IMG/VR virus record: IMGVR_UViG_3300025154_001556
Origin: a virus
Taxonomy: Duplodnaviria; Caudoviricetes
Length of the DNA: 64,000 nucleotides
Reading direction: 5' to 3' (one strand)
In this document: positions 6,001-18,930 of the stretch, one piece after another
Layout: the number at the start of each line of letters is the position of its first letter
Position numbering within the stretch: the stretch's first letter is position 1
The notes under the pieces: model-generated
Database searches by the model: none
Told to the model about the DNA's origin: nothing
The model's input: the letters and a program-made list of their open reading frames with translations, nothing else
Program-made: the position numbers and the translations under genes

Positions 6001-9000
6001 AACCTCACCTACACGTGCACCACCAGATTCTTGAGGCTTCTCAAAATACTCTTTTACTTTTTCTACATTACTTGTGTGCATAGCCAGTTGCTCTTTCGGC
6101 GCTAACCATTTTGGAACTGGCACTGTGCCTGCCTCACCCCAGTCTTTATTGGCAGACTGGTTAATCATGGTGTATGAGTTCTCTACGGATTTTAAATACT
6201 TTATGACAGTCTCTAAATTCTTCTTTTGAGCTGCTCCAAAATCGTCCGTTAGATTATACTTCATGTAACGTTCAAGAGAAGCGCGGAGCCTACTTAATTT
6301 TTCAGCCAAAAGATCAAAATCCCAAGCATGCATAACATCAGAGCCCATCCTAGTTAGCATCTCGGCATTTTGCATCATGTCTATCATTTCTCTTTTAACA
6401 TTGGAACCAGTAATTGTAGATACAGCTGTACGTGCTTTTTCAACAGCAGGGGTCATCACACTGTCTTTTTGTAAATCACTTACTATATTTTCAAACATTG
6501 ATTGTAGTTGTTTATCATCACCTAATGGTGTTGTAGCCTTAGTAGCCAACTCACCTGGTGTTTGATAAACATTTAGTCTACGTGCCATTTCCGGCATTAC
6601 AAATTTTTTATCTTCTGTGTAAATGTCTGTTCTAGAACCAGCTACCCTACTAACAAACTTTCGCATTCTTGATATAGCGGATTGTGCCTTACCATAACTT
6701 GCGGTTTCCGCCTCAAAATCTTTTGAGGAGCTAGCCGCTTCGTAGGCCCTTTTTGCCTCCTTGGCTTGAGATAAGTAGTAATCTCCTTCCGCCATTCTAT
6801 ACAATTTCCAAGCTTTATTTAATTGCGCTCCTGCTCTACGTTCACCTTCAGGTCCACCTTGATCAGTGGCTAGCTGTTTAAATTTATCTGTTGCTTTTCT
6901 AAATCTATCCATATCTGGGCCAGTTTTACCTGTGCCTCTAATTATGTCGGATAAATCTTTACTTACTTTTTCGAGACTATTAAGCTCTTCTTCATAGTTG
7001 ATGTTACGAACTTGCCGTTGGAATTCTTTGGCGGCTGTATGGAATGTGGTGAAGTTCTCTAAATCGGCCCATACATCCTTACCAGCGGCTATTTTAGGGC
7101 TATATAATTTGTCTATATCACTAATTGAATCGGTTTCGTCAAGTTTAAAACCCTTAATTTTCTCTTCACTCTCTTTAGGTGTCATCGGTCTGTAAGAAGC
7201 AGCCCTTTGTCTACCGCCGCCAGCAGTTTTAACAGATTCAAAATGTTTTGAAGATTCATCTAACATTCTCTTTAAATCAGAAGCACTTATATTTAAAGGA
7301 CTAGCCTTCTTTGCGGCCTCCGTTTGTTCCTCTAAACTACCTGTGGTTCTAAATTTACCAGCAAACCTTCTAGCTTTAGCTACGGCATCCACATCTTTAG
7401 CTAATAAGGCTGGGTCTTGTTTAAATTTCACAACTTCAGGGGTATCTTCACCCTTACCCGTGCTACTATAATACTTAGCCTCGCCTTTAGTTGCACCAAT
7501 GGCTGTCATATAAACATTTAACTGTGATGCCACATCCAGTAATTTATATGCGGCCGCTAGACTGGGTTTGTCCCCTTTCTCAATGAGTTTGGCGTAAACT
7601 TCTGGGAAATCAGATGTACCGGAAGTTTGTATGGCTTCTCCAATAGCTTTTTTAACCCCCTCACCTACTGTCTTTATATCCATAGGATATTTTTCACCAG
7701 TAGTTTCATCTTTCATTACAACATCTATATGCCCGGTTATAGGGCCAGACTTTGTGGTTAAAGCCACAAATTGTTCTATGGCAGCTGTGGGGTCCATAGA
7801 TATTATATCTTTTTGTATTTTAGCATGTATGGCTTGACCAACAAGAGCAGAGGCTTCTAAGAAGTCATTAGGAATGTTGTCACTTTCTCCACGCATTGCT
7901 GACACTATGGCAGCTATCTGACGACTATTTAATTCTTTTTCAGAGAAGTCTTCTTTTTTAAACCCACTCTTATAGGAACCGCCGCCGGCTAAAGCACTGG
8001 CTCTATATATTGTTGCATATGTTGCACCGCTAAGCTCATTGTGGCCACCTGTTATTTGGGCAGACCATTTTTTAAGCTGTTCTACATCGATAGCAGGCTC
8101 AGTAGTTGTCTGAGTTTTAGCTTGTGGGGTGTCTCCTACAAATAAACCTATACCAGCAGCAATGCTTTGTAGATGAACATTTAAAGCACCGCCAGTAAAA
8201 GTAAATGGTCCCCCTGGAACACCAGCACCCGGTGTTGTTATACCAGGGGTAGCCGGGGGCGGGGGCCCTCCTGCAGACCCGTAAATACCGGCTTCCATTA
8301 TAGGAGAAGATACTTTAGCCGCCTCTATACCTGCGGTGGAACGATATGTTGTTCCCCTAACTTTACCTGAGGAGACAGGGGGTAACATAGTAGCCACATC
8401 CATACCAGAGGCACTAGAAGTTTTAAATACTTTTAAAGCTCTATCTAGTGAATATAAGGCCTTCATTTTTTCTGAAAATACGTCTACATATGCATCTACT
8501 TTGGTTTGTAGTTCTTCGGGAGTTAAGCCTTGATCTTTAAATTTAGTTTCAGCCATCTTACTAAGTTCGCTTTTACCTAGTAGCTCTATTTCTTGTAGCA
8601 CTGACGGCTCTACTACTGGCAGCCCCGCTAGTGTAGTATAATAGTCTACAACATCACGCATACGCATTAAATCTTTAGCTGAGGATCTATCTTTAAATAC
8701 TTGCGTATGTATTGGAGACATTGTGGCTAAGTCACCCGTGGTTAATTCAGTAAGCTTACCAATACTATCTTGTATTGATTTAATATCCAGAGGTTCGTAA
8801 TTAGCAATAGCTGCAGTTACAGCTTGCACGTCTTTCTGTGAATTTTTTAATCTATCGGCAGAAGTCTTTACCAATTCACCGTAAGCACCAGAACCAGATA
8901 CCTCATATAACTGATTAAGCTCATCTTCCAAATTAGATGCGGTAGCTACTGCCTTTGCCATACTAGACGAGTATCTAGCTTCTTCTTTTTTACCATAAGC

Positions 9001-12000
9001 ACCTGGCTGTAATTTAGATATACCCACATCTAAATCTAACGCGCCTTTACCATGCTTACTGATATAAGCACCCATTTGGCTTTCTGTACTAGCGCCGGCG
9101 GTTCTAAATTTATATAATGGTGCTTCTTTACTAGTTATTAGGCTTGAAGCTACCGCAGATGGACTTGATTCTTTTAATCTTCTGGCATATTCTTCTTTGG
9201 CTGCCGCTTTAAGGGTGTCAGGAGACATTCCTTGGCCCTTATTAGCGGCTATTTGTTTCTGTAATGTATCCAGAGCCGAATTTATAATAGACTGCTCTAA
9301 ACGCGTTAGAAAGCCTCTAAAACCCATCTTGTCTACCATCTCAGCAGTAAATTTATCTATATCAGATAAGTCAGCAGTTACACCATAAGCGGTTGCCATA
9401 CTTTTAACATCATCCGCCATCCCTTTGGACAACATGCTATGTATTCTATCTGTTATAGCTTGAGCATCTGCCTTAACAAAATCTTTAAGATCTTCGTAGT
9501 CTTTATTATTTAAAATGTTTTTATATACTTTTTCTCCGCCACCAGGTTCCATTATATCTCTGGTTATATCCGAGGACACAGAAGCGGCGCCGGCATGTTT
9601 AACGTCCATACCTTTCTGTAAGCTAAATCGGGTTAGCTCATTCATTCTAGCTTGTTCGTCCCTAGAGAATTTCTGATCGCCCTTAGCACCTATTAAGCTG
9701 GATTCCCCAGATACATCTTTATTGTAAGAAAGACTTAAGCGTGTAAAAGCCTCTGTTTCAGGGCCTGTATGAATTTTAAATAACTGCGCGGCCACAGCTG
9801 ACTTAGTTCTCTCATTTGCCAAAGAGGCACCTGTTTGAAATTTAAATGATTTTTTAAATTTATCATCTAAGGTCTCTATTACTGCCGCAACTTTATCTGC
9901 GTTATTTTTTAATTCGTCCGCATTACTAAGATCTTTTATGTTAGTCACAGCCGCTTCTAACTTGTCAGCATCTGTTTTATCGAGTAAGTTGCTTATTTGT
10001 TCAAGTACTTTATTTAAATCCTTGGAATCTCCGGCTAAAGCCTGCATCTGTTCGGATAAAGATAAGAAACCCATATCTTCCGTAGCAAAAGGTTTCTGCA
10101 TAAAACTGAAACCTTTTTCTGTTGGAAATTTTTTAGCAAAAGACTCTCCCATCTCTGCTAAGGTATATTCCGATGCTGGGGGCTGCACCGCGCCATAAGT
10201 AAACTGATCTCTAAATACTGATGCTGTATCAGATAAATCCTGAGTTAAGGTATCATAATGTTTTTTAATATCCCCTCTGGCTTTAACATTAATAGCAGAG
10301 TGAATTTCTATGGCGTCACCGTCAAAATCTAGTTTTTGTTGATGTGCTATATACTTAGGTAATAAATTGGATATAGCGGCATTAAGCTTATCAATTAAAT
10401 CTGTTAATTTTTCTAGCTTCTCTGGTGAGGCTGCGGCGCCTTTACTTAACTCACCGGCACGTTTGGTGGATAGATCTTCCCGCTGTTTAGTCATTCTTTG
10501 AATAACGCCAGATAAAGCATCCATCGGTAGATTGGGCATACCAGGAACAGCCAATACATTACTAGCCATACCTCCTTTACCTTCATCTAGTAGTCTAGCT
10601 TTATAGGGCTGTATTGAAGATGTACCTGTAAAAGGATAACGAAGGCTCTCTATATAAGGAGCTAGCTCTTCTTCTATGTATTTTTTTATAGTGGCTTTTT
10701 CTTCCGCTGTGCTCCCTTTACCCTGCAGATCTTGGGTGTAACGCAGCATGTCTAATAGAGTACCTTCTACCTTAGTAGCTGGAGCAGCCTCGCCTTCTTT
10801 TGTAAATTTCTTGGTGAAGGACACAGGTATCTTTCTGGCTATTTCCGCAGGGACACCGATCTCATGCTGACCCAATACTGGAAGACCTAACTCACTTGTA
10901 CGTTTTAGACGCTTGCTATGTTTTTCTTTTATAGATTGTGTTTGTTCCTGCAGTGATTTTAAAGATTTAATACTTTTTTCTGATATCCCCATCTCTTGTT
11001 GCATTTCTGGTGATAGGCCCTCTAGATCACCTATGATGGCGGACATCTGTGTATCAAATGTTTCTAGATCTTTTGTCTTATCAACAGTAGCAGAAACAGC
11101 CTTAGCCATGACAGCTGGTATTTTTCTAGTAAATAAAGTTTCTGCAACAGAACCACTTTTACCTAAGGTAGTTTCAGCCAAAGTCTCTAAATAATTTATT
11201 TTAGCTTTTTGGACAGCAGCAAGTTTATTATTCATCTCTTGTTCTAACATGCCCTTACCGCCAGAAAAATCTTTACTAATGGTATTTAGTTGCTCAAGTA
11301 AGTTACCTTTTGGATCTACTTTAAATGGTACTTTACCTTCGCTCAATTGTCCTGAAACTGTGGCGCCGGCATGTCTAAGAGCTTTAAGTATGGCGTTGTA
11401 TCTTTTTTCGGCATAGTTAGCTTGGGATTGAACAACACCTTCCATAGAACTAGCGTAGGACTTATCCATAGATGCGGACAAATCATCGTTTATATTCTTT
11501 TTAAATGTTATCCACATTTGTTCTAATTCTTTTACATATTTAGGATCATAGGTGGATAGCCTGCCCCCTTTCACTCTTATGTCACTAGTGGTGGACAACA
11601 CAGAAGATTTAAGCATTCCCGCAGCAGCTTCTTTCATAACTGCTTCCGCTGTTTTACGTGAATCTACATTTTTAGCCATATAGTACTGTTCAGTGTTGGT
11701 TACAAAATCTTGGTAGTCCTTAGCGGAGTTTATTAAGTTTTGTAATACACGTGTAGGCTCTTCGGGACCAAATTCCCCGGCTACTAAGGGCTCAGGATAA
11801 ACACCGCGGCCAGCAGGGGACGGGACATAGAAGTCCTCAAACGCTGTGGGCTTTTGACCAAGTTTGGCTTTAGAAGCATCAGATGATGGTAATTGTAGCA
11901 TAAAGGGCTTGTTGAATTTCTCAACATCCATAACAGTTCCCAACATACTACGCTTACCTTTATCCAGTGTTCCTGTAGAATAGTCAAAAGATTTTAATTC

Positions 12001-15000
12001 ATCTACCGATACTTTTTCTAACTTATTTCTTAAAGCTCCTAAAACCTCAGAGTCTTTATTAGTATTGGCTATTAGGGTCTTTATGTATTCCCAATGTTTT
12101 TTATCGGTATCACTTAGCTGTTCTACAAGTTCTGCTTGACTACCAGCACCCTGAATTGGTGTCTGGTTTATTTCCTTCATCAATTCCGAATCTTTACCAA
12201 AAACATTTAGATAGGCTGTATAAGCTGGGACATTAAGCTTTGCACCTTTTATACGTTTACGCACATCAGTGGTAGACCATGCCTCGGTAGCGGTAGGCTC
12301 CTCCACTACCTGTAAGAATTTTTGACCGACAAGACTCTTACGTTTTTCTCCAAACTCGTCTATAATTTCTGTATAAAAATTAGACATCTCCTCAAGAGCG
12401 GCGCCACGTTTTGCCATTACAGCTGCTTGATCAGACTTCTTACCACGTTGCATAAAGATTTTTGTTAAAGCTTCCTCTGCCTTTCCTGGGTCGGTACCCT
12501 TAAAACCCAAAGCGGAACTGTATGTAGATAAGGATTCTTTACCACTACCGAGTAATTTTTTATACATATCGGGGGCGAACTTATCCCGTAACGTTGTGTA
12601 GGCCTCATCTTTTTCTGATGCTTTTTGGACATTAGCAACGTTATTAAGTATGGTCTCTAATACCTCTGTCTGTAAACCACGTTTACCAGCACCTAAGGAA
12701 CTTATTCTAACATCAATTGGTTTTAGTTCATACAAACCACCTTCTTTAATCATACTACTATATGTTTGTTTCAGGTTATTTATACCATCAACACCATCGG
12801 TTATGGCTATACCAATTGAACTAAATAGCTCCTTGGCTTTATTATAGATATCTTGTTGGACAGAAGCCTCTTCTGGAATAGTTAAACCTGATGTAGCATC
12901 TTTAAAATACTCTATCATAAACTTATTACCAGAGTTTATGAGTTGTGATTTTAGCCCTTCTACTTCTGATTGAGAAGCACCTGCTGCTGTAAGCCCTTCT
13001 ATTTGACTATCTAACAATTCAGCTGCTAACTGCCCCATACTTTTAGGCATTTTGGCAGTACCTAAACCAGCGTTTACCTGCTCTTCACTAGTAAGTACTT
13101 TTATGTTTTTATCACCCCAAGTTTTAAGAATGTCTGACATTTTAGATGTGTCAGTAGAGGTCATAGACACACCCTTCGATCCAAAACGTGTGGTAAACTT
13201 TCTACCAAAGTGATTCATAAAAACTTCGGCAACTTTCGCTGCTTGCACTTCTACATTCTCAGAACGTACTGTTGCCATGGCTTTTTGTACTTCTGTAATA
13301 AAAGCTTTGTCTGCGCGTCCTTTATAGGTATTACTAACTCCTAACATATCCTGAAACTGGCTATATACTTTATTAATAGCCTCAGGAGAATCTACATCTT
13401 TTAACACCCCAGGCTTAACATCTGATACCGCCTCTGTGCCTTTACCCGAACTTAACTCTTTTCCCAGCATCCTACCGCCGGCTGCGGGTAAAACTAATGT
13501 TTTTGTTAAAGAGGTAACAGCATCAGCAAGTTTACCAGATACAAGTATTTGATCTTCAAACGTGCCGGCAGTGTGGCGTAATTCAGCAGTGACGTTAAAA
13601 CCATAACCTTTCTCACCGTAACGGCCACCTTCGATTAAAGATTTTTCACGCTCTGTTCTTAATGTTGGTGTTGTAGTACCAATCCCTTTTACACGGGCTA
13701 CATCAAATTTATCTGTAAGGCCGTTTATTTCATCAATAGAAGAGGACATAGCGTTAGTAACACCCGCTATATTACGTCCTAATTGTTGAAATTCACCAAA
13801 AGGGGCCATGCTTGTTAAGTCATCAACAAACATCTTTATATTAGTTCCACCAAGTGCTTTTAAGTAAGATAGCCCTTCTTCGTAATCTTTATTATCCTCG
13901 TCGGCTCCTCTTACTTTATTAGATTTAAGGTAAGCTATGGAACTAGCCTGAGACTCGGGTATACCTAAGGAGGATAGTTTTCTTCCTTGTGTAGGCAGTT
14001 CTTGTAACCGTTTAACAATAGGACCAGATTCCGGAGATTCTGCCGCCAATTTAGCGAGCATGTCCCTTTCAGCGTACATTTCCTTAAAACGTAGGTTTAA
14101 ATCTTTAATATAATTTTTATGTTCTTCAGGTTTTAATTCATAATCCCTTTCAGTAGGATATAAACCTGGTGTACCTCTGGAAAGAAGATTAACCACATTA
14201 GATTGCTGTAAACCACGACGTGGTTTACCGGGCTCTATTAGCGGCATCAGTTGTTCTACTTGTTTTGTAGCTGATTCAAAGCCCCTGGCACCACTCTGGT
14301 ATGCTGGTTTTTCTACCAACTTTTTTAGCGGGTCTGCTAAGACCTTACCATAGATATCATATATGTTTTTAAATTCTACTTTATCTAAGGCCTTTGCAAA
14401 ATCATATGCTGACACTTGTGCGGTGTTCATCATATTAACAAAAGACATGATCTGCGTTTTAAGATCTTTGTTGGGGTCAAGGGTAAACTGATCTATCTGA
14501 TTAGTAATGTTGGTTAATGCAGGTAATATGTCTAAATCAGGATCTATACGTTTTTTCTGCACCATTTTGGAAACAGTGGCTGCTTTGTACCCTTCTTTGA
14601 TGCCGGAGAATTCTTTAATAACACGTGCATATTCAGTTGATGCAGGTGCACCCTGTTTAAAAGTGCTTATATCAGCTAGCAATTTAGTTACTAAATCTGA
14701 TACAGCATTTTGTTCTAAGCGTGTTTGGGGATTAACACCAATAGTTTGTATTTTAGAAGCATAGTCTTCTTCGCGGCTTAATGTGCCGGCCTGTAGTGCC
14801 TTACTGTACAGCTTTTCCAGCCCTGTTTCAAACATTGCAAATTTAGATAAAGCACGTTCTGAGCCATGAGCGGTTTCCAAAATAGGGGTACCGGAAGGAG
14901 TCATCCTAGCCGCAGGTAGTGCCACATTACGGATATAAGGGGCTGGATGTTCTTTTCTTGTAGTGTCCACATCAGATAAACTTCTGTTGACCTCAGCTAC

Positions 15001-17766
15001 CGCGTATGTTTGTCTAGTAAGTTGTGTTAGTGGCCCTAATTGACTACCAACAGCTTTTTTTACACCTTCAACTAAATTAACAGTGCCTTTGGATGTTTCA
15101 TAAGCCGTTTTAAGATCAAGAAGTGCTTTTTTAATTTCAGGATCTGCCACGGTTGTCCAACCAGCTATATTTTCTTTCGACGCGGACTTCATCCACGTAG
15201 CTACTTTACTAGCCAGTAACTCCGCATTTTCATCAGCACTACCGCCATGAGTTACATTTGCCATTAACTTATCTAACTGCAGCTCTTTAAAGGCAGAAAC
15301 TATTTGATTTGGATCACCCGTAGCAGTTCTTTTGTTTTTTGTAAGTTCTCTTTGCATAGATTTTACATCCGCTATCTGCATGGTCCACATTTTAGCGTTT
15401 GTTTGATTTAAGCTATTACTTACATTTGTAAAATATTTGCTACTTTCAGGAGCTCCGGGCATTTCTAAAGGCTTCCAATCAGATTTACCTAATTGCTCAG
15501 TAACCGTGTTAGTAATATCTTTTAGTAATGCATTTAATGAGCTGGAAAGCTGTCTCTCCATAGCATGGACGTCGAGGGAAGCTCTGGAAGCGGAGATACC
15601 TTTAAGAATACCTTGCACAGAATCAGCCATCTGATCTTTTGCGGTAGCTACTTTATCGAACTCCTGTTTTATATTATCAGCACTATAACCACCTACTGCT
15701 GGTTTTATTACTTTAGATCCATAAACAGCTTTTTGTTCTGATGTACTACCGATCGCTTTAATTCTGCTAATATTTGCTGCCGGTGTGGTAGGAGCTTTGG
15801 CGCCGACATTAGTAGCAACTTTTGTAGTTGGTGCAGCCAACACAGTGTGTTTAGTACTATCAGCTAATTTAGTTAAAGACGCAGCTACTTCGGCTACATT
15901 ACGCTCTAAGGCTTCAAACTTGCTACTTAAATCTTCTGTTTTTATAGCCCTAACCTTAGTTACTAAATTATCAGCAATTTGAGATCCGGCCTTGGCTTGA
16001 CTTACCATTGAGGCCTCAGTTGTATTTTGTAGCTCATCAATCAAAGATCGCAGGGCGGCAATCTCACTGGATGCTTTTTTTACTTCTGGGCTATTAAAAG
16101 AACTCGTCCTTAAGGTCTTATTTATAGATTCAGTTTTAACACTTAAAGATTCTGTAAGAACCCCTTTTAATGATTCTAAATTCTTTTTTAAAGTAGATAT
16201 AGCTTGTTTATAATTATTAAAATAGCCACTTAAAGCTTTGGCAGCCTCGTCGGCGTTTAAATCAAGCAGCACGTCTAATTTAACGTTATCTGGAAATTTA
16301 GAAGTTATTAAACGTTCAATGTTTTCTAACTTAGGGGCTATTACTATCTCAGCAGCACCTGATGAAATTTCCTTAATTACAGAATTAAGTTCTTTTTTAA
16401 CATCCGCAGTGTCTATTGTAACATCTAGGGTGGCGGCTTTATCTATAATATCAAGTAGTGTAGTTATTTCCTTAAGTTTTTTATTAAGTGTTGTAGCTAC
16501 ACCTATCTTAATATCTCTATCTTTTACTAGAGTATCTATGTCTTTTTCAGCTAATTTAGTATCGGCAGAAACTTGGACAGTTACTTTACTGTTAGAAGCA
16601 TTTATTATAGAATCAATTGTTTTTCTAAATGCTTTATCATCAACATCTACTGATAGTACCAACTTTTCAGAAAGTTTATTGAGTCTAGTAATTATTTCTT
16701 TATCATTAAGGGCTACATCTATTTGTTGCTTAGACTTTTTAGTAGCTGTTTCTAGATATTTTATGTTGCTGGTAGATCCACCAGATTTTAAAAGTTTAGG
16801 TAAGTCTTCTAGTGCTTTACTTACAGCACGTAACTCAGAAAGTGTACTAACTAAAACTTTATCTGTTTGTTTAGAAGGCTCTTTACTAATTATACTTGTT
16901 TTCTTTGCAGCGGATAAAGTAACCAAACCTTTTTCTACTGATTTAGATATGGCTGAGGCCAACGCATACGTATCGATACCGCTAGCAGCAGAAGAGCGTT
17001 GTTTTGTAGTTTCTTCTTTTACGGCTTTTTTTATTTGATCTAGTTCTTTTATAATGTCAGAACTAGCAGCTGGTGAAGCCTCTACTGCTTTGGATAATTT
17101 TGTTAGTCCGGAAGTAAGTTGTTTAATCTCTGAATATAATTTTGATAGTCCAGCACTTACTTCTTTTACATTTGATGTATCTTTGGTTGTTGTAACAGTA
17201 GTTTTGTAGGAATTATCTACGCTCTTGGCTAACCCTTCTATGGCTGTTTGTAACTTAGTTAATTTACCAAAGTCAGTTGATGCAGGATCTTTTTTAATGG
17301 CAGTAAGGATAGAGGTATTGAGATCTTTTATACTTTTGTCTATGGCAGTTTTATCTGATTTACCTGATATGGCGCCTAATACTTTTGTTAGCGCACCTAA
17401 TTCTTTTGTTATAATTGATTCTAATGCCTTAGTATCTAATGTAGTTGTAGGTTTACCCGAAGACGTGGTTCCGCCTGCAGTGATACTTCGTTGAAATTCT
17501 TTGGCTATTGTTTTGGAAATATTATCTGCAAGGATCTTTGCTTGCTGGGCAGTATCTTTTGTAGCAGTGCTTGACTGAGCTTTACCATACGCATCATTTA
17601 GCCCATCCTTTATTGCTTTTTTAACAGAAGACGCTAATCTATCGGTTAACCCATTAAATGCTTTTGCTAATGTGCTATCTAAGGTAGAAGCTATATTGTC
17701 GGCCTTATTGCTTCCTGAACTTGATCCACTTATTATATGAGATACTGTGATGTCGTGCTTAGCCAA
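1..17766 (-). CDS. Giant tape measure protein fused to a two-barrel RNA polymerase and a PD-(D/E)XK nuclease (3'-partial, at least 5922 aa)
   Basis: AGGAGG RBS 7 nt upstream of TTG at 17766, in-frame TGA just upstream (17797-17799). Translated by hand from 17766 to about 4500 and sampled below that without an in-frame stop; the same frame is open at position 1 (..AEKKKVEQAIKDMKEVYKQQ). Absence from the ORF track fits an ORF with no stop inside the window. Lies downstream of tail tube and chaperone-like genes and contains a TP901-type TMP core. Confidence 0.95.
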   Translation of the reverse strand, partial: MAKHDITVSHIISGSSSGSNKADNIASTLDSTLAKAFNGLTDRLASSVKKAIKDGLNDAYGKAQSSTATKDTAQQAKILADNISKTIAKEFQRSITAGGTTSSGKPTTTLDTKALESIITKELGALTKVLGAISGKSDKTAIDKSIKDLNTSILTAIKKDPASTDFGKLTKLQTAIEGLAKSVDNSYKTTVTTTKDTSNVKEVSAGLSKLYSEIKQLTSGLTKLSKAVEASPAASSDIIKELDQIKKAVKEETTKQRSSAASGIDTYALASAISKSVEKGLVTLSAAKKTSIISKEPSKQTDKVLVSTLSELRAVSKALEDLPKLLKSGGSTSNIKYLETATKKSKQQIDVALNDKEIITRLNKLSEKLVLSVDVDDKAFRKTIDSIINASNSKVTVQVSADTKLAEKDIDTLVKDRDIKIGVATTLNKKLKEITTLLDIIDKAATLDVTIDTADVKKELNSVIKEISSGAAEIVIAPKLENIERLITSKFPDNVKLDVLLDLNADEAAKALSGYFNNYKQAISTLKKNLESLKGVLTESLSVKTESINKTLRTSSFNSPEVKKASSEIAALRSLIDELQNTTEASMVSQAKAGSQIADNLVTKVRAIKTEDLSSKFEALERNVAEVAASLTKLADSTKHTVLAAPTTKVATNVGAKAPTTPAANISRIKAIGSTSEQKAVYGSKVIKPAVGGYSADNIKQEFDKVATAKDQMADSVQGILKGISASRASLDVHAMERQLSSSLNALLKDITNTVTEQLGKSDWKPLEMPGAPESSKYFTNVSNSLNQTNAKMWTMQIADVKSMQRELTKNKRTATGDPNQIVSAFKELQLDKLMANVTHGGSADENAELLASKVATWMKSASKENIAGWTTVADPEIKKALLDLKTAYETSKGTVNLVEGVKKAVGSQLGPLTQLTRQTYAVAEVNRSLSDVDTTRKEHPAPYIRNVALPAARMTPSGTPILETAHGSERALSKFAMFETGLEKLYSKALQAGTLSREEDYASKIQTIGVNPQTRLEQNAVSDLVTKLLADISTFKQGAPASTEYARVIKEFSGIKEGYKAATVSKMVQKKRIDPDLDILPALTNITNQIDQFTLDPNKDLKTQIMSFVNMMNTAQVSAYDFAKALDKVEFKNIYDIYGKVLADPLKKLVEKPAYQSGARGFESATKQVEQLMPLIEPGKPRRGLQQSNVVNLLSRGTPGLYPTERDYELKPEEHKNYIKDLNLRFKEMYAERDMLAKLAAESPESGPIVKRLQELPTQGRKLSSLGIPESQASSIAYLKSNKVRGADEDNKDYEEGLSYLKALGGTNIKMFVDDLTSMAPFGEFQQLGRNIAGVTNAMSSSIDEINGLTDKFDVARVKGIGTTTPTLRTEREKSLIEGGRYGEKGYGFNVTAELRHTAGTFEDQILVSGKLADAVTSLTKTLVLPAAGGRMLGKELSSGKGTEAVSDVKPGVLKDVDSPEAINKVYSQFQDMLGVSNTYKGRADKAFITEVQKAMATVRSENVEVQAAKVAEVFMNHFGRKFTTRFGSKGVSMTSTDTSKMSDILKTWGDKNIKVLTSEEQVNAGLGTAKMPKSMGQLAAELLDSQIEGLTAAGASQSEVEGLKSQLINSGNKFMIEYFKDATSGLTIPEEASVQQDIYNKAKELFSSIGIAITDGVDGINNLKQTYSSMIKEGGLYELKPIDVRISSLGAGKRGLQTEVLETILNNVANVQKASEKDEAYTTLRDKFAPDMYKKLLGSGKESLSTYSSALGFKGTDPGKAEEALTKIFMQRGKKSDQAAVMAKRGAALEEMSNFYTEIIDEFGEKRKSLVGQKFLQVVEEPTATEAWSTTDVRKRIKGAKLNVPAYTAYLNVFGKDSELMKEINQTPIQGAGSQAELVEQLSDTDKKHWEYIKTLIANTNKDSEVLGALRNKLEKVSVDELKSFDYSTGTLDKGKRSMLGTVMDVEKFNKPFMLQLPSSDASKAKLGQKPTAFEDFYVPSPAGRGVYPEPLVAGEFGPEEPTRVLQNLINSAKDYQDFVTNTEQYYMAKNVDSRKTAEAVMKEAAAGMLKSSVLSTTSDIRVKGGRLSTYDPKYVKELEQMWITFKKNINDDLSASMDKSYASSMEGVVQSQANYAEKRYNAILKALRHAGATVSGQLSEGKVPFKVDPKGNLLEQLNTISKDFSGGKGMLEQEMNNKLAAVQKAKINYLETLAETTLGKSGSVAETLFTRKIPAVMAKAVSATVDKTKDLETFDTQMSAIIGDLEGLSPEMQQEMGISEKSIKSLKSLQEQTQSIKEKHSKRLKRTSELGLPVLGQHEIGVPAEIARKIPVSFTKKFTKEGEAAPATKVEGTLLDMLRYTQDLQGKGSTAEEKATIKKYIEEELAPYIESLRYPFTGTSSIQPYKARLLDEGKGGMASNVLAVPGMPNLPMDALSGVIQRMTKQREDLSTKRAGELSKGAAASPEKLEKLTDLIDKLNAAISNLLPKYIAHQQKLDFDGDAIEIHSAINVKARGDIKKHYDTLTQDLSDTASVFRDQFTYGAVQPPASEYTLAEMGESFAKKFPTEKGFSFMQKPFATEDMGFLSLSEQMQALAGDSKDLNKVLEQISNLLDKTDADKLEAAVTNIKDLSNADELKNNADKVAAVIETLDDKFKKSFKFQTGASLANERTKSAVAAQLFKIHTGPETEAFTRLSLSYNKDVSGESSLIGAKGDQKFSRDEQARMNELTRFSLQKGMDVKHAGAASVSSDITRDIMEPGGGEKVYKNILNNKDYEDLKDFVKADAQAITDRIHSMLSKGMADDVKSMATAYGVTADLSDIDKFTAEMVDKMGFRGFLTRLEQSIINSALDTLQKQIAANKGQGMSPDTLKAAAKEEYARRLKESSPSAVASSLITSKEAPLYKFRTAGASTESQMGAYISKHGKGALDLDVGISKLQPGAYGKKEEARYSSSMAKAVATASNLEDELNQLYEVSGSGAYGELVKTSADRLKNSQKDVQAVTAAIANYEPLDIKSIQDSIGKLTELTTGDLATMSPIHTQVFKDRSSAKDLMRMRDVVDYYTTLAGLPVVEPSVLQEIELLGKSELSKMAETKFKDQGLTPEELQTKVDAYVDVFSEKMKALYSLDRALKVFKTSSASGMDVATMLPPVSSGKVRGTTYRSTAGIEAAKVSSPIMEAGIYGSAGGPPPPATPGITTPGAGVPGGPFTFTGGALNVHLQSIAAGIGLFVGDTPQAKTQTTTEPAIDVEQLKKWSAQITGGHNELSGATYATIYRASALAGGGSYKSGFKKEDFSEKELNSRQIAAIVSAMRGESDNIPNDFLEASALVGQAIHAKIQKDIISMDPTAAIEQFVALTTKSGPITGHIDVVMKDETTGEKYPMDIKTVGEGVKKAIGEAIQTSGTSDFPEVYAKLIEKGDKPSLAAAYKLLDVASQLNVYMTAIGATKGEAKYYSSTGKGEDTPEVVKFKQDPALLAKDVDAVAKARRFAGKFRTTGSLEEQTEAAKKASPLNISASDLKRMLDESSKHFESVKTAGGGRQRAASYRPMTPKESEEKIKGFKLDETDSISDIDKLYSPKIAAGKDVWADLENFTTFHTAAKEFQRQVRNINYEEELNSLEKVSKDLSDIIRGTGKTGPDMDRFRKATDKFKQLATDQGGPEGERRAGAQLNKAWKLYRMAEGDYYLSQAKEAKRAYEAASSSKDFEAETASYGKAQSAISRMRKFVSRVAGSRTDIYTEDKKFVMPEMARRLNVYQTPGELATKATTPLGDDKQLQSMFENIVSDLQKDSVMTPAVEKARTAVSTITGSNVKREMIDMMQNAEMLTRMGSDVMHAWDFDLLAEKLSRLRASLERYMKYNLTDDFGAAQKKNLETVIKYLKSVENSYTMINQSANKDWGEAGTVPVPKWLAPKEQLAMHTSNVEKVKEYFEKPQESGGARVGEVRSYPIKVLDQTGQVVRNVVVDFAKYGKSLSDITIKERDLASAMQGSNSGFRGAIGRAVKWGAASTVVYGGFAQLKQAISTLAEIEYSLATLKMMLNPLSSDINGLSAAAVTFAKQYGVGITDVLQSMNVFAQQGLTQAEIIDRTKVSTLAANVTTLKASEATEALTSAMKIYQEEGNSAMRFLDAWSEVEAKSAITAGDLANAIQKSASAAKIAGVTFDQLNGIVAAIGSTTRQSGKEVGTSLRFILRRLSAEKGPEQLGKLGIPVMESTGQLRSGFSVLDDLSKKWKDLSNAQKLATSQALGGTRQYNSLIALMDNWDQALRATKESMNSKGSAERRNAELMGTYRKQLEQTKVALVELQMSIGKVALPAFKIGLSGVKTFLETLSAIPDPIKAAGAAFVALLTYMTKGQQLAESLGDMLAGGKDFLGISGAGEQFTKELAKTKYELFGLGGGKLATAGLKTLGKFTTTDASGGKTDVTRGTKLSDFHSSFGRLSFKLQEVGKVFNSFVADSVSTTGKGIASFGAAGKTVGTKLSSTAGIGETIETIRKRNSMTKEDIEKTVKELGIHQALKKLVSGGLAMGAEVAGMGSYLGGMAVKGFGDSLGDIGKKLTENLATDDTSFIAAVAPLLTTIAALVPAIKVLGDQYGRMTQSAQDYANAMYSMRSIQEDNLTNIKNMAASYDVLQSKIEDLNKLNDPATKERRKSLNTYEAPIITLGRAQEDVISLANQLAESNSNLVLGYDKVGNAVLKASTNFDEYFKVLDKSRTKQLAESEVDVASKFIEDLTKTGGSENTKKMIKDIASEVPIIGEMLAKGIKVAPAKAIAEVTAQLNNLLSIKAKSPMSSAVDKDIKKYQETLKALRNDYAATYKEFSNVLGNINTKGLDPNEIAKIFADPRLKEGYDVILNMEPRLNIAGLKGKINWQDVLGQTVMQRALPSAKSLDFTKELTKGKLESAGLFERQGKVLNNDIVLFMDDVAAKYNMAGKQAIVKLKETSDGVFEWVAQYFNTKTLKVEERAFDKDMQQLVENIFPANHIQDEITDKIEILNEFVAGAGAGIRAISAKDFKKEFDLGERFFSDIATTTLLQSGKGFTPTASTGKGFGESPFQKSWKKDFEEYYAKPMIKFRSYMEDLDKLKVEGLDEGSVTIANDLYKELENLTTILKNNQVVMQYRAVLADLTKTFESGKRAIEENIAVERSRQEVFKGTTGYLKGISEGLDTFDTGGPKYKDLTVQQRTLIGSEDYRNLAAQLKELDIQKQGASEGMYSSDKALVALDSIAAVSKGFGSVLTKDEMQNFTETVARTGDTGYAELKIETSRVATNTADTVTKLEDILMALGSPGELDKQLEKYMSASSPQDLLTGLERVAEMRDRASATGNSDMVIEANKVLDVMTKNLTSQLGVDRTLKEIGSQNVFGAKNYTATEASQRMFSGLDFRDFVTQMKDVVPEESKWFGLKTVPNKPTFTADVEAINKLQTANQQTQFIDDKTVMKATAAASVASAFQKAGENATVKKLDEQLQVLRAQLAAEEAKPAVNQNKGLIEDLKTQEKTLTTSREDTAAKATLYGAVTTMTASKTAIMEFAKSLGFADDTIKKLGAGTVATYAALLVFSKLLGTDLSEATKNYGKVLKDVATGVANTGEAPSLSQAIKLKRAEKNFYEDYEKNKTQYGFADGGRVFGEGTPTSDSINAKLSKDEYVLDAATARRAGYARLDKFSKTHNPEDLTGFATGGAVKNSLIESKDELKNKADLLRKVNDILKDYPELSDVLKGSEEMALDVLKEKYPEVHKAVTTLSKIKVGKGEEATLNLPDDLKKLLDAVNFKMATGGPIAGEGTGTSDDILARVSNGEYIIKADSAKHLGQSKLDYINEYGKLPTFATGGAVAGPITDPDINRPAQVLATAAAATMAGYLAESNEKLTEIATASKKSAAESTLIADLIQKNTSSAQKIFNTLNEQAIKNATTDKILQGTEVKSKVLDVDAEKKKVEQAIKDMKEVYKQQ
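358..987 (-). repeat. Four (F/M)A(D/T)GG motif repeats in the distal TMP, two in full GGxxxGxGTxTSDxIxAxxSxxEY form
   Basis: FADGG 973-987 (FADGGRVFGEGTPTSDSINAKLSKDEYVL), FATGG 805-819, MATGG 517-531 (MATGGPIAGEGTGTSDDILARVSNGEYII), FATGG 358-372. Confidence 0.75.
4750..5850 (-). other. TP901/PhageMin_Tail-type tape measure core domain
   Basis: AIGRAVKWGAASTVVYGGFAQLKQAISTLAEIEYSLATLK..FAKQYGVGITDVLQSMNVFAQQG..AITAGDLANAIQKSASAAKIAGVTFDQLNGIVAAIGSTTRQSGKEVGTSLRFILRRL..GIPVMESTGQLRSGFSVLDDLSKKWKDL..GGTRQYNSLIALMDNW, the typical TMP core pattern. Confidence 0.9.
7380..8020 (-). other. PD-(D/E)XK (RecB/lambda-exonuclease-like) nuclease domain inside the giant TMP
   Basis: Ordered motifs YRASAL, GQAIHAKIQ (7813-7839), ITGHIDVV..YPMDIKT (7669-7740), SQLNVYM (7507-7527), then GEAKYYS. 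No Cys cluster, so not Cas4-type. Confidence 0.8.
9500..11850 (-). other. RNAP beta-prime-like module (DPBB-A, catalytic DFDGD) inside the giant TMP
   Basis: Motifs colinear with RpoC: YVPSPAGRG..LQNLINS (11725-11829), LGKSGSVAETLFTRKIPAV (11110-11166, cf. KGKQGRFRQNLLGKRVD), HEIGVPAEIARKI (10828-10866, cf. Rpb1 DQVGVPKSIAKTL), RYPFTGTSSIQP (10606-10641, cf. RAPTLHRLGIQA), KLDFDGDAIEIH with DFDGD at 10315-10329 (cf. NADFDGDQMAVH). Possible trigger-loop-like QKGMDVKHAG at 9589-9618 (weak). Confidence 0.92.
12180..14900 (-). other. RNAP beta-like module (DPBB-B) inside the giant TMP
   Basis: Motifs colinear with RpoB: GTPILETAHGSERALSKF (14839-14892, cf. GTFIINGTERVIVSQL), PFGEFQQLGRN (13771-13803), FEDQILVS (13537-13560, cf. 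FEDSILVS), GRKFTTRFGSKGVS (13165-13206, cf. GDKMAGRHGNKGVIS, both catalytic lysines kept), PIDVRISSLGAGKRGLQTEVLET (12652-12720, cf. [23 protein letters not shown]). Confidence 0.9.
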
Positions 17767-17845
17767 AGCGGTGCCTCCTAGATGATGTTGCTTTAATCAA
17801 TTAAACATTCTTTTATTCTTAATAATAGAATGGTTACCTTATTAC

Positions 17846-18868: not shown

Positions 18869-18886
18869 GCGTGGCCTTTATATATA

Positions 18887-18920
18887 GTTATGGGGCTGCT
18901 TTTATACAGCCCCTTATAAC
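18887..18920. terminator. Intergenic hairpin GGGGCTG-N8-CAGCCCC
   Basis: Perfect 7-bp GC stem (18892-18898 / 18907-18913) with imperfect GTTAT/ATAAC extension between two CDSs; weak U-tract. Confidence 0.4.
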
Positions 18921-18930
18921 AAGCAATTCT

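What the first reader, a model, noticed from the sequence alone, without database searches (positions are those of the whole stretch)
9500..14900. A two-barrel RNA polymerase is embedded in a tape measure protein of at least 5,900 aa that the ORF track missed
Seen: one frame from TTG 17766 to the window edge encodes RpoB-like motifs (FED at about aa 1403, GRKFTTRFGSKGVS at about aa 1521 with both catalytic lysines, PIDVRISSLGAGKRG), then RpoC-like motifs (RYP..SIQP, DFDGD at about aa 2480), then a TP901 TMP core at about aa 3980-4340. Known: virion-delivered two-barrel RNAPs occur in crAss-like phi14:2, and a tail-tape-fused virion RNAP was reported for Thermus phage P23-45 (Chaban et al. 2024, cited from memory). 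Inference: this phage ejects its own RNAP as part of the TMP to transcribe early genes, extending the architecture to a very different AT-rich large-phage lineage.
Basis: partly seen in the sequence, partly recalled or inferred. Interest (0 to 1): 0.95.

Follow-up and report, generated by a model that had tools for sequence, protein, structure and literature searches.

The report
RNA polymerase built into giant tape-measure protein
A 7,618-residue tail tape measure protein of an uncultured giant phage carries a single-chain cell-type RNA polymerase and a nuclease ahead of its ruler part, so injecting a polymerase fused to the tail ruler, proven so far only in one Thermus phage group, looks widespread.

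Summary
One frame runs open from TTG 17766, which has an AGGAGG ribosome site, to the window edge. That is 5,922 aa in the window and 7,618 aa in the full record. All the quoted motifs are present, and the Pfam tape-measure core lies at aa 4030-4226.

The profile of aa 1080-2950 matches a free-standing ~1,100-aa fused beta/beta-prime polymerase family of related phages (hhalign 98.9%, E 3.7e-17). That family in turn hits bacterial RpoB structures (E 3e-5) and Pfam PF00623. A predicted model of aa ~1900-2530 aligns with the largest RNAP subunits of bacteria, archaea, eukaryotes and viruses (Z 10-12, about 270 residues).

E1404/D1405, K1523/R1527/K1531 and the three aspartates are invariant in the 34 aligned relatives. 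The beta-like barrel itself did not fold confidently. Activity and ejection are inferred by analogy with P23-45 gp96.

New points:
- The giants are almost cysteine-free (0 in 7,618 aa), against 16 Cys per 1,000 aa in the free paralogue.
- A RecB-like nuclease module sits at aa ~3310-3420.
- About 100 clusters at 50% identity match at E ≤ 1e-30; 61 of the sequences fetched exceed 6,000 aa.

No paper in the held library describes this family. This scan already reported what is probably the same family on other DNA (e1-5327686, e1-5351394).

The parts
1..17766 (-). Window part (aa 1-5922) of the 7,618-aa tape measure protein gene. The gene runs off the window's left edge; the last ~1,696 aa lie outside.
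   Evidence: Open frame. Full record P0002 is 7,618 aa with the same start.
17766..17778 (-). Shine-Dalgarno AGGAGG (17773-17778) and TTG start codon (17764-17766).
   Evidence: Sequence read directly.
14467..17766 (-). N-terminal region, aa 1-1100. It is rich in Ala, Lys, Ser and Thr and is poorly conserved (9-31% identity to relatives).
   Evidence: Conservation profile; composition.
12157..13833 (-). Beta (RpoB)-like half of the RNAP module, aa ~1312-1870. Compared with the free paralogue it has an insertion of about 140 aa between GSKGV and PIDV.
   Evidence: hhalign aligns aa 1312-2018 with P0037 residues 218-682, E 3.7e-17. The AF2 model of this part has low confidence.
13552..13560 (-). 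FED, aa 1403-1405. It aligns with E. coli beta 811-822 (NFEDS region). E1404 and D1405 are invariant.
13165..13206 (-). GRKFTTRFGSKGVS, aa 1521-1534. K1523, R1527 and K1531 align with E. coli beta K1065, R1069 and K1073.
   Evidence: hhalign top hit against RpoB; invariant in the family; translation.
12676..12720 (-). PIDVRISSLGAGKRG, aa 1683-1697. It is the counterpart of the free paralogue's KIDVIVGLSAVKKRK and of beta's PVDIILN..RMN.
9067..12153 (-). Beta-prime (RpoC)-like half, aa ~1872-2900. It holds a clamp-core-like N-terminal part, a variable helical insertion at aa ~2018-2200, the catalytic barrel, and a conserved tail reaching ~2900.
   Evidence: VIA-align places model residues 503/540-1160 (aa ~1872/1909-2529) on E. 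coli beta-prime 25-504, A190 19-656 and Rpb1 12-531, with Z 10-12. Conservation profile.
10624..10644 (-). LRYPFTG, aa 2375-2381. R, P, T and G are invariant.
   Evidence: hhalign pairs it with the paralogue's VRYPYS (E 0.035).
10315..10329 (-). DFDGD, aa 2480-2484, the Mg-binding aspartate triad. The three Asp are kept in every relative examined (variants DYDGD, DHDGD, DLDGD).
7507..7839 (-). PD-(D/E)xK nuclease-like module of RecB/Cas4 type, aa ~3310-3420. E3331, D3348, D3363, K3365, Q3415 and Y3419 are invariant. It has no cysteines. It is present in 27 of 34 relatives.
   Evidence: phrog_1706 at E 1.8e-7. Profile hit to PDB 4ic1_A at E 3.6e-4, and PDDEXK_1 in 7 of 27 members. Presence and absence across relatives.
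5089..5679 (-). Tape-measure core, Pfam PF10145 (PhageMin_Tail), aa 4030-4226. It is the most conserved block of the protein.
4066..4143 (-). Hydrophobic, probably membrane-inserting segment, aa 4542-4567.
   Evidence: Kyte-Doolittle scan.
388..978 (-). Two copies of a motif shared with other tape measure proteins, GG.(I/V).GEGT.TSD...EY, at aa 5597 and aa 5749.
   Evidence: PHROG TMP families hit this region; regex scan.
17846..19689 (-). Two ORFs (340 aa and 252 aa) in the position of tail assembly chaperones. They match no family.
20048..21661 (-). Tail-tube-like protein, 537 aa.
   Evidence: The Atlas structure search matches Phage_tube_2, Phi812_tail_tube and Phage_tail_2 clusters at TM 0.74-0.86 normalised by the match.

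Best explanation
The gene encodes a 7,618-aa tail tape measure protein that is also an enzyme carrier.

Layout of the protein:
- A poorly conserved N-terminal ~1,100 aa comes first.
- A single-chain two-barrel RNA polymerase follows: a beta-like half at aa ~1312-1870 and a beta-prime-like half at aa ~1872-2900.
- A RecB-type PD-(D/E)xK nuclease follows at aa ~3310-3420.
- The tape-measure core, a hydrophobic segment and a long C-terminal ruler complete it.

Shown here: homology of the module to RNAPs; conservation of the catalytic residues (E1404/D1405, K1523/R1527/K1531, D2480/D2482/D2484); the TMP identity of the protein; and the existence of a paralogous free-standing fused RNAP in related genomes.

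Inferred: the whole polypeptide is built into the tail as the ruler. On infection it leaves the tail ahead of the DNA, C-terminal channel-forming part first. The polymerase then refolds at or near the entry pore and transcribes the first genes of the entering genome. Those genes would include the one for the free-standing polymerase, which takes over. This is the scheme shown experimentally for Thermus phage P23-45 gp96 and gp64.

The near-total absence of cysteine in the fused copy, against 16 Cys per 1,000 aa in the free paralogue, fits a protein that is stored extended, crosses the envelope and must refold.
For: ORF and TMP identity:
- The ORF and its start are real.
- PF10145 scores 97.6 bits and PHROG TMP families hit.
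- A tail-tube-like gene lies two genes upstream, inside a TerL-portal-MCP-tail module on the same strand.

RNAP homology:
- hhalign of the family profile (aa 1080-2950) against the free RNAP family gives 98.9% probability and E 3.7e-17 over 431 columns. Collinear secondary hits fall at DFDGD (E 0.0017) and RYP.
- Controls give E 0.07-0.63.
- HMMER over 1.84 billion representatives also links the module directly to free proteins of ~1,000-1,160 aa (E 1e-12 to 5e-4).
- The free family hits Pfam PF00623 (25.6 bits, cut-off 25.3) and weakly PF00562. It hits PDB RpoB chains at E 3e-5 and E. coli RpoB at 78%, E 1.7e-5.
- The top hhalign hits of the TMP module against E. coli RpoB and RpoC fall exactly on the catalytic motifs.

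Structure:
- The AF2 model has mean pLDDT 71, and 76-90 in most of the beta-prime part.
- VIA-align scores include 6rrd_A Z 11.8 (262 aa), 7ob9_A 11.4 (281 aa), 9mu7_A 11.3, 2pmz_A 10.9, E. coli 4jk1_D 11.3, vaccinia 6rfl_A 10.2 and QDE-1 7y7p_A 10.0.
- 49 of the 50 best rows of the second look are largest RNAP subunits.

Selection:
- The catalytic residues are invariant in the 34 aligned relatives; the fetched sequences of 2,000 aa or more that reach the site all keep the DxDGD aspartates, and the Lys-Arg-Lys pattern is found by regex in most of them.
- The module is among the best conserved parts of the protein.

Cysteine:
- There are 0 Cys in 7,618 aa, and 23 in 456,719 residues of 62 sequences of 6,000 aa or more (the window's own protein among them).
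- The free paralogue has 16.2 per 1,000 aa and other window ORFs 6.9 per 1,000.

Second polymerase:
- It is present in G002 (268,764 bp, 100% complete by CheckV) and in G003.
- Matching contig lengths suggest it in three more genomes.

Precedent: PMC10770324.
Against: - There is no direct significant Pfam, PHROG or PDB sequence hit for the TMP module itself. PF00623 reaches only about 15 bits.
- The beta-like barrel region (FED and Lys motifs) has pLDDT < 50 in both models. Model 2 found no RNAP fold. The two-barrel active-site geometry is therefore not demonstrated.
- Foldseek on the whole model gave nothing significant. VIA Z values of 10-12 lie within the range helical noise can reach, although helical bundles cannot explain ~270-residue alignments to the same subunit across all domains of life.
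- Nothing here shows that the protein is in virions, is ejected, is uncleaved or is active.
- How a module of about 1,600 aa fits in or behind a tail tube is unknown.
- The window's nearest relative contig (G001, 89% complete) carries no free-standing RNAP. For the window's own genome the second polymerase rests on an unchecked scan note plus a matching database protein.
Confidence: 0.65

Rival explanations
1. The module is an active two-barrel enzyme that is delivered with the TMP, but its main job is not promoter-specific early transcription. It might pull the genome into the cell by transcription-like translocation. It might make primers. It might work with the adjacent nuclease on host or phage nucleic acid.
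For: The same polypeptide carries a conserved RecB-like nuclease in 27 of 34 relatives. The fused copy has large lineage-specific insertions relative to the free paralogue. Related genomes already encode a free RNAP that could transcribe early genes if host RNAP made it first.
Against: In the one tested precedent the TMP-fused enzyme binds and transcribes pre-early promoters (PMC10770324). The residues conserved here are those of nucleotide addition. No specific feature of a primase or translocase was found.
Confidence: 0.15
2. The gene is a polyprotein. The polymerase, and the nuclease with it, is cut from the TMP precursor during tail assembly. It acts in the producing cell, or is packaged elsewhere such as in the head, and is not part of the tail ruler.
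For: Many TMPs are proteolytically processed (established knowledge, for example lambda gpH). The conserved TMP core begins only at aa ~3700. A folded module of about 1,600 aa is hard to house in a tube lumen.
Against: The whole 7,618 aa, polymerase included, is cysteine-free while the free paralogue is cysteine-rich. That suggests one shared constraint along the chain. The gene sits in the late structural module, a poor place for an enzyme needed in the producing cell. In P23-45, a 5,002-aa TMP with an ~800-nm tail gives 1.6 Å per residue (my arithmetic from the published figures). That implies the whole chain counts as ruler.
Confidence: 0.1
3. The module is a catalytically dead relic of a polymerase, kept as a structural or spacer domain of the ruler.
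For: The beta-like barrel did not fold confidently. There is no direct family hit.
Against: All metal-binding aspartates and the Lys-Arg-Lys and Glu-Asp residues are invariant in the 34 aligned relatives that are 33-66% identical over aa 1370-2569, and the aspartate triad is kept in every further fetched sequence that reaches the site. Spacer regions of the same protein drift to 5-15% identity.
Confidence: 0.05
4. The fusion is an artefact: an assembly chimera or a sequencing frameshift that joins an RNAP gene to a TMP gene.
For: None found.
Against: The same uninterrupted architecture occurs in 35 proteins of 6,555-7,998 aa from separate metagenome contigs. In the exhaustive search there are 61 sequences of 6,000 aa or more besides the window's own. 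It also occurs in five IMG/VR contigs read directly.
Confidence: 0.01

Closest known systems
Thermus phage P23-45 gp96 (Oshimavirus; also P74-26, G20c, TSP4): tape-measure-fused virion RNAP, PDB 8h2m/8h2n (Chaban et al. 2024, PMC10770324)
   Same: Both have a two-barrel RNAP with DFDGD in the same polypeptide as a giant TMP (5,002 aa against 7,618 aa). In both, related genomes also encode a second, free-standing, paralogous RNAP (gp64 against the ~1,100-aa fused enzyme). Both TMPs contain no cysteine.
   Different: - There is no detectable sequence similarity between the two fused modules (hhalign E 0.05-0.35) or between the TMP parts.
- Only the free paralogue family touches gp96, at residues 715-787 (E 2.8e-5).
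- Here the module is internal (aa ~1312-2900) rather than N-terminal (327-1124) and is about twice as long.
- It keeps recognisable RpoB/RpoC motifs and an N-terminal part of about 270 residues that aligns with the largest subunit. gp96 is described as flat and clampless.
- A nuclease module is added.
- The hosts are mesophilic-type, AT-rich uncultured phages with contigs of ~230-310 kb.
Free-standing fused beta/beta-prime RNAP of the same phage group (P0037 family, ~1,100-1,240 aa; unnamed 'hypothetical protein' in the sources)
   Same: It is the nearest relative of the embedded module (hhalign 98.9%, E 3.7e-17). It has the same motif order: WEDQI, GNKGV, IDV..KRKN, VRYP(F/Y)S, LDFDGD.
   Different: It is compact, with no large insertions. 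It is cysteine-rich (16 per 1,000 aa). It is encoded among helicase, RtcB, amidoligase and GATase genes rather than in the tail module. It is directly recognised by Pfam PF00623 and PF00562.
Cellular multisubunit RNAP catalytic core (bacterial beta and beta-prime; Rpb2/Rpb1; A135/A190)
   Same: It shares the catalytic motifs with the same spacing: Lys-x7-Lys, ED and DFDGD. The beta-then-beta-prime order is the same. The N-terminal ~500-650 residues of the largest subunit match structurally (Z 10-12).
   Different: The module is a single chain. No alpha, omega or sigma partners are evident. Sequence identity is 14-22% in the structural alignments. There are large helical insertions. Equivalents of the bridge helix and trigger loop were not identified.
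crAss-like phi14:2 gp66 and N4 gp50 virion RNAPs
   Same: They share the concept of a polymerase carried in the virion inside a very large protein and injected to transcribe early genes (stated in PMC10770324).
   Different: Those are podovirus ejection proteins, not tape measures. N4 gp50 is a T7-like single-subunit enzyme, not a two-barrel one. The searches here returned neither as a meaningful match; only an N4 mini-vRNAP chain, 3c2p_A, appeared in the Foldseek list at E 0.22 and TM 0.06.

Membership tests
Two-barrel (double-psi beta-barrel) DNA-dependent RNA polymerases | A beta-prime-type barrel carrying the DxDxD metal-binding loop | tested here: met
   DFDGD at aa 2480-2484 has its three Asp kept in all relatives examined. 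Model residues 843-1139 superpose on the A190, Rpb1 and beta-prime active-site barrel (for example 5g5l_A: Z 11.7, rmsd 3.3 Å, 127 aa, 22% identity).
Two-barrel (double-psi beta-barrel) DNA-dependent RNA polymerases | A beta-type barrel with the two conserved lysines and the acidic ED pair | tested here: inconclusive
   The sequence motifs are present and invariant (K1523, K1531, E1404, D1405). They align with E. coli beta K1065/K1073 and the 811-822 region. Both AF2 models have pLDDT < 50 there, and no barrel was recovered.
Two-barrel (double-psi beta-barrel) DNA-dependent RNA polymerases | Statistically significant homology to recognised RNAPs | tested here: met
   The link is transitive. 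The module matches the free family at E 3.7e-17. The free family matches PDB RpoB at E 3e-5 and Pfam PF00623 above its cut-off. The direct Pfam score of the module is about 15 bits, below the cut-off of 25.3.
Two-barrel (double-psi beta-barrel) DNA-dependent RNA polymerases | Template-dependent RNA synthesis | not testable with these tools
   This needs biochemistry.
Phage tail tape measure proteins (TP901/PF10145 type) | The PF10145 core domain | tested here: met
   97.6 bits against a cut-off of 33.2, at aa 4030-4226. phrog_4211 hits at E 2.7e-67.
Phage tail tape measure proteins (TP901/PF10145 type) | Gene position downstream of the tail tube and chaperone genes in the structural module | tested here: met
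   The order on one strand is TerL, portal, MCP, tube-like ORF, two unassigned ORFs, then the TMP.
P23-45 gp96-type TMP-fused virion RNAP | The RNAP and the TMP lie in one polypeptide | tested here: met
P23-45 gp96-type TMP-fused virion RNAP | Sequence homology to the gp96 polymerase or to the gp96 TMP part | tested here: not met
   hhalign of the module profile against gp96 1-1300 gives E 0.048 at best, away from the motifs. BLASTP of the TMP parts gives nothing meaningful.
P23-45 gp96-type TMP-fused virion RNAP | A paralogous non-virion RNAP in the same genome | tested here: inconclusive
It is met in relatives G002 and G003. It is absent from the 89%-complete relative contig G001.
P23-45 gp96-type TMP-fused virion RNAP | Presence in virions and transcription of pre-early genes | not testable with these tools
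   The phage is uncultured and no whole genome is held.
RecB/Cas4-type PD-(D/E)xK nucleases | The catalytic D...(D/E)xK motif plus the QxxxY motif | tested here: met
   D3348, D3363, K3365, Q3415, Y3419 and E3331 are invariant in 27 sequences. The profile hits PDB 4ic1_A at E 3.6e-4.
RecB/Cas4-type PD-(D/E)xK nucleases | Cas4's four-cysteine iron-sulfur cluster | tested here: not met
   The protein has no cysteine at all. It is therefore RecB-like and not a Cas4 proper. Pfam PDDEXK_1 scores only sub-threshold, in 7 of 27 members.

The most novel reading that the evidence does not exclude
The tape measure of this phage clade is an injected multi-enzyme device. A polymerase and a RecB-like nuclease would be threaded, unfolded and cysteine-free, through a tail of about a micrometre and would refold at the entry pore. 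Transcription by the pore-anchored polymerase would then help pull a genome of 230-310 kb into the cell. The fusion to the ruler would have arisen independently of the Thermus phages, from a duplicate of the phage's own fused beta/beta-prime polymerase. That would make ruler-borne polymerases a recurrent solution rather than a curiosity.
Probability: 0.3. Interest if true: 0.85.

Novelty: new variant of a known kind. Interest (0 to 1): 0.72.

Why it matters
The 2024 finding that a tail ruler can double as an injected RNA polymerase rested on one genus of Thermus phages.

This work points to a sequence-unrelated and much larger version:
- It occurs in about 100 clusters at 50% identity of uncultured large phages.
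- More distant lineages of 4,000-5,500 aa share the same tape-measure core.

That turns a curiosity into a general infection strategy.

It also raises three testable questions:
- How is a polymerase of about 1,600 aa stored in or behind a tail tube and refolded? The cysteine purge is a first clue.
- Is genome entry coupled to transcription?
- What is the added nuclease for?

The fused and free paralogues also form a natural pair for studying how a cell-type polymerase core is remodelled for two jobs.

Tried and rejected
- Pfam and PHROG scans of the module found no RNAP family. PF00623 gave only about 15 bits in two relatives.
- phmmer and hmmsearch of the module against PDB sequences returned noise only.
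- tblastn of aa 1200-2700 against 50,697 cultured phage records found no match.
- Foldseek of the 1,200-aa model against the PDB had no hit at E ≤ 0.001.
- A second AF2 model aimed at the beta-like half (aa 1080-2010) had pLDDT 64, with the motif region below 50. VIA-align found nothing above Z 6.5.
- hhalign against P23-45 gp96 and gp64 gave no support for membership of that family.
- The protein-atlas feature search of aa 1300-2900 gave only generic phage and TMP clusters at 0.83-0.89, so it was uninformative.
- A search for the free RNAP in the window and in the relative contig G001 found only the TMP module itself.
- The whole genome is not held, and the look-up of encoding contigs refuses proteins over 5,000 aa. 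The window's own second polymerase could therefore not be verified.
- A k-mer search for repeated promoter-like words in the window and in G001 gave nothing convincing.
- A sheath gene was looked for. The 739-aa ORF at 25766-27985 looks Ig/PKD-like and not like a sheath. The tail type stays undecided.

Full report
**Observation**

The minus strand from TTG 17766 to base 1 is one open frame of 5,922 codons that runs off the window. AGGAGG lies 7 nt upstream of the TTG. A database record of the same protein (P0002) has the same start and 7,618 residues.

Three of them were checked by translating the exact window coordinates. Pfam PF10145 (97.6 bits, cut-off 33.2) lies at aa 4030-4226, and PHROG tape-measure families cover aa ~3950-5890.

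The gene closes a structural module on one strand. The order is:
- terminase large subunit, 45694-47424;
- portal, 41407-43209;
- major capsid protein, 37125-38195;
- a tail-tube-like ORF, 20048-21661;
- two unassigned ORFs in the chaperone position;
- the TMP.

**Not an artefact, and under selection**

A word-indexed search found 35 proteins of 6,555-7,998 aa with the same layout, on contigs of up to 311 kb. An exhaustive HMMER search of 1.84 billion representatives found 137 proteins at E ≤ 0.001 and 100 at E ≤ 1e-30. Pooled with the first search, the fetched sequences of 6,000 aa or more number 62 including the window's own protein and a 96%-identical near-copy.

A full-length alignment shows three conserved blocks: aa ~1100-2000, aa ~2200-2900 and aa ~3700-5300. 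The N-terminal ~1,100 aa and the C-terminal third drift to 5-15% identity.

In the 34 aligned relatives (33-66% identical over aa 1370-2569) the following are invariant: E1404, D1405, K1523, R1527, K1531, D2480, D2482, D2484 and the RxPxTG of LRYPFTG. Two of the further fetched sequences have DHDGD or DLDGD, which still keeps the three aspartates.

**Is it an RNA polymerase?**

Direct searches fail. There is no Pfam or PHROG RNAP family, no PDB sequence hit and no hit in cultured phages.

The link comes through a second gene. In two related IMG/VR genomes a separate ORF of ~1,100-1,180 aa matches Pfam PF00623. One is G002 (268,764 bp, rated 100% complete). The other is G003. The G002 protein, P0037 (1,102 aa), has PF00562 (RpoB domain 6, weak) at residues 361-473 and then PF00623 (25.6 bits, cut-off 25.3) at residues 742-824. 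It is therefore a single-chain beta-then-beta-prime enzyme. Its family has more than 235 members. Its profile hits bacterial RpoB chains in the PDB at E 3e-5 and E. coli RpoB at 78% probability, E 1.7e-5.

Profile against profile, the TMP region aa 1080-2950 matches this family at 98.9% probability and E 3.7e-17 over 431 columns (aa 1312-2018 against P0037 218-682). Collinear extra hits fall at DFDGD (E 0.0017) and at RYP (E 0.035). The motifs pair as follows:

| TMP module | Free RNAP (P0037) |
|---|---|
| TFEDQILVSGKLA | TWEDQIMVDSSHA |
| GRKFTTRFGSKGV | GVKITNLSANKGV |
| PIDVRISSLGAGKRG | KIDVIVGLSAVKKRK |
| LRYPFT | VRYPYS |
| LDFDGD | LDFDGD |

Controls were clean. A reversed template gave E 0.63, and three other parts of the TMP gave E 0.07-0.32. 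HMMER alone also links the module to free proteins of ~1,000-1,160 aa. The top hhalign hits of the module against E. coli RpoB and RpoC fall exactly on beta 811-822, beta 1063-1075 and beta-prime 457-481. K1523, R1527 and K1531 correspond to beta K1065, R1069 and K1073.

**Structure**

An AlphaFold2 model of aa 1370-2569 was built on 34 sequences. Its mean pLDDT is 71 and its pTM 0.53. The beta-prime-like part scores 76-90, but the first ~200 residues, which hold FED and the lysine motif, score below 50. Foldseek on the whole model found nothing significant.

VIA-align against 48,161 representative chains placed largest RNAP subunits among the top rows, mixed with helical-bundle noise:

| Chain | Subunit | Z | Aligned residues |
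|---|---|---|---|
| 7ob9_A | human Pol I A190 | 11.4 | 281 |
| 9mu7_A | Drosophila Rpb1 | 11.3 | 282 |
| 2pmz_A | Sulfolobus A′ | 10.9 | 252 |
| 6rfl_A | vaccinia | 10.2 | 269 |
| 8q3b_A | ASFV | 10.0 | 274 |
| 7y7p_A | QDE-1 | 10.0 | 182 |
| 6edt_D | M. tuberculosis beta-prime | 9.7 | 260 |

In the second look, 49 of the 50 best rows are largest RNAP subunits (Z 10.3-11.8, 14-22% identity). Model residues ~503/540-1160 (aa ~1872/1909-2529) lie on E. coli beta-prime 25-504 or A190 19-656. The beta-prime-like half therefore has structural support.

A second model aimed at the beta-like half (aa 1080-2010) was poor in the motif region and gave no informative match.

**A correction**

hhalign pairs LRYPFTG with the free enzyme's VRYPYS/VRYPFS. 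An earlier scan note, not tested here, equates that with the beta-prime RVDYSGRSV strand. The spacing to DFDGD is 105 residues here. It is probably not the NRAPTLH..IQAF element.

**Relation to P23-45**

The precedent is real. gp96 (5,002 aa) carries an active RNAP at residues 327-1124. That enzyme transcribes pre-early genes, including the gene for a paralogous non-virion RNAP, gp64 (PMC10770324).

The module here shows no similarity to gp96 or gp64, and the TMP parts are unrelated. Only the free family touches gp96, at residues 715-787 (E 2.8e-5) and at 8h2n/8h2m (E 0.03-0.04). That is no closer than its link to cellular RpoB.

The differences are:
- the module is internal rather than N-terminal;
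- it is about twice as long;
- it keeps an N-terminal part of about 270 residues that aligns with the N-terminal region of the largest subunit;
- a nuclease follows it.

What the two systems share is the logic: a fused copy in the ruler plus a free paralogue. Both are found in G002 and G003.

For the window's own genome, the scan note e1-5363431 reports a 1,138-aa fused polymerase 151.5 kb upstream. P0148 sits in a neighbourhood syntenic with that of G002. The 89%-complete relative contig G001 ends before that position and has none.

**New features**

1. Cysteine. There are 0 Cys in 7,618 aa, and 23 in 456,719 residues of 62 sequences of 6,000 aa or more (0.05 per 1,000). The free paralogue has 16.2 per 1,000 and other window ORFs 6.9 per 1,000. 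gp96 also has none, though gp64 has none either. The purge covers the polymerase module. That argues it shares the fate of the rest of the chain: storage in an extended state, passage through the envelope, then refolding.
2. Nuclease. aa ~3310-3420 has invariant E, D, DxK and QxxxY residues. It hits phrog_1706, PDB 4ic1_A (E 3.6e-4) and, weakly, PDDEXK_1. It is present in 27 of 34 relatives. With no cysteines it cannot hold Cas4's iron-sulfur cluster, so it is RecB-like.
3. More distant lineages. Proteins of 4,000-5,500 aa (P0216, P0243, P0253, P0255, P0266, P0269) share the TMP core at E 1e-77 to 1e-91. They carry DxDGD nearer the N-terminus.

**Mechanism**

The homology, the conserved catalytic residues, the TMP identity and the paralogue are shown.

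The rest is inferred, by analogy with P23-45 and with established TMP biology. The chain would be built into the tail. On infection it would exit with its C-terminal channel-forming part first, and the polymerase would arrive just ahead of the DNA. The polymerase would refold and transcribe the first-entering genes, and the free polymerase would then take over.

λ gpH gives about 1.5 Å per residue (cited from memory). P23-45 gives about 1.6 Å per residue, which is my arithmetic from 5,002 aa and ~800 nm. If that rule holds for the whole chain here, the tail would be about 1.1 µm. No sheath gene was recognised, so the tail type is open.

**Novelty**

No paper in the held library describes this family. 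The survey in the supplement of Chaban et al., searched only for the words tape, TMP, fused, jumbo and metagenom, gave no mention of another tape-measure fusion or of metagenomic sequences. This scan has already reported what is probably the same family on other DNA: e1-5327686 (7,646 aa, the length of P0026) and e1-5351394. It has also reported other TMP-RNAP lineages.

I rate it a new variant of a known kind, with interest 0.72.

Noticed in passing
window 1-17766 (whole TMP); family P0002-P0036 and P0157-P0247: The giant tape measure proteins are almost free of cysteine: 0 in 7,618 aa, and 23 in 456,719 residues of 62 sequences of 6,000 aa or more. Their free-standing RNAP paralogues have 16 Cys per 1,000 aa. 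P23-45 gp96 also has none.
   Followed up: partly
window 7507-7839 (-), aa ~3310-3420: A RecB/Cas4-like PD-(D/E)xK nuclease module lies between the polymerase and the TMP core. It has invariant E, D, DxK and QxxxY residues. It is present in 27 of 34 relatives and absent from P0004, P0005, P0012, P0017, P0027, P0028 and P0034.
   Followed up: partly
L016:8212-11520 (-) in G002; L033:10001-13417 (+): A free-standing fused beta/beta-prime RNAP of ~1,100 aa sits in a conserved neighbourhood. The neighbours are Peptidase_C26/GATase, phiEco32-like COOH-NH2 ligases and a ResIII/DEAD helicase, plus RtcB RNA ligase in G002. The family has more than 235 members, and wherever a source names them they are called 'hypothetical protein'.
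   Followed up: partly
P0216, P0219, P0243, P0253, P0255, P0257, P0266, P0269: More distant giant proteins of 2,260-5,563 aa carry DxDGD nearer the N-terminus. All but P0257, a 2,260-aa sequence that is probably cut short, also have a homologous TMP core. They look like further lineages of tape-measure-fused polymerases. P0257's GGKMTTRAGGKG matches a motif quoted in scan note e1-3317024.
   Followed up: no
window 44563-45369 (-) and 45694-47424 (-): An HNH endonuclease gene lies immediately downstream of the terminase large subunit gene. This pairing is typical of HNH-assisted packaging.
   Followed up: no
window 25766-27985 (-): A 739-aa ORF within the structural module resembles Ig-like/PKD repeat proteins, though the atlas scores are weak. 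It may be a decoration or fibre protein. No sheath gene was recognised between the capsid gene and the tube gene.
   Followed up: no
window 58295-59575 (-): A PhoH-like ATPase gene (phrog_2765, E 3e-59).
   Followed up: no
window 388-522 and 844-978 (-), aa 5597 and 5749: Two copies of the motif GG.(I/V).GEGT.TSD...EY occur in the C-terminal ruler. Several PHROG tape-measure families share it.
   Followed up: no
G001 (L020-L031): The word ACTACATTAATTTATC occurs four times in the 234-kb relative contig. It could be a regulatory or promoter-like element. The positions were not examined.
   Followed up: no
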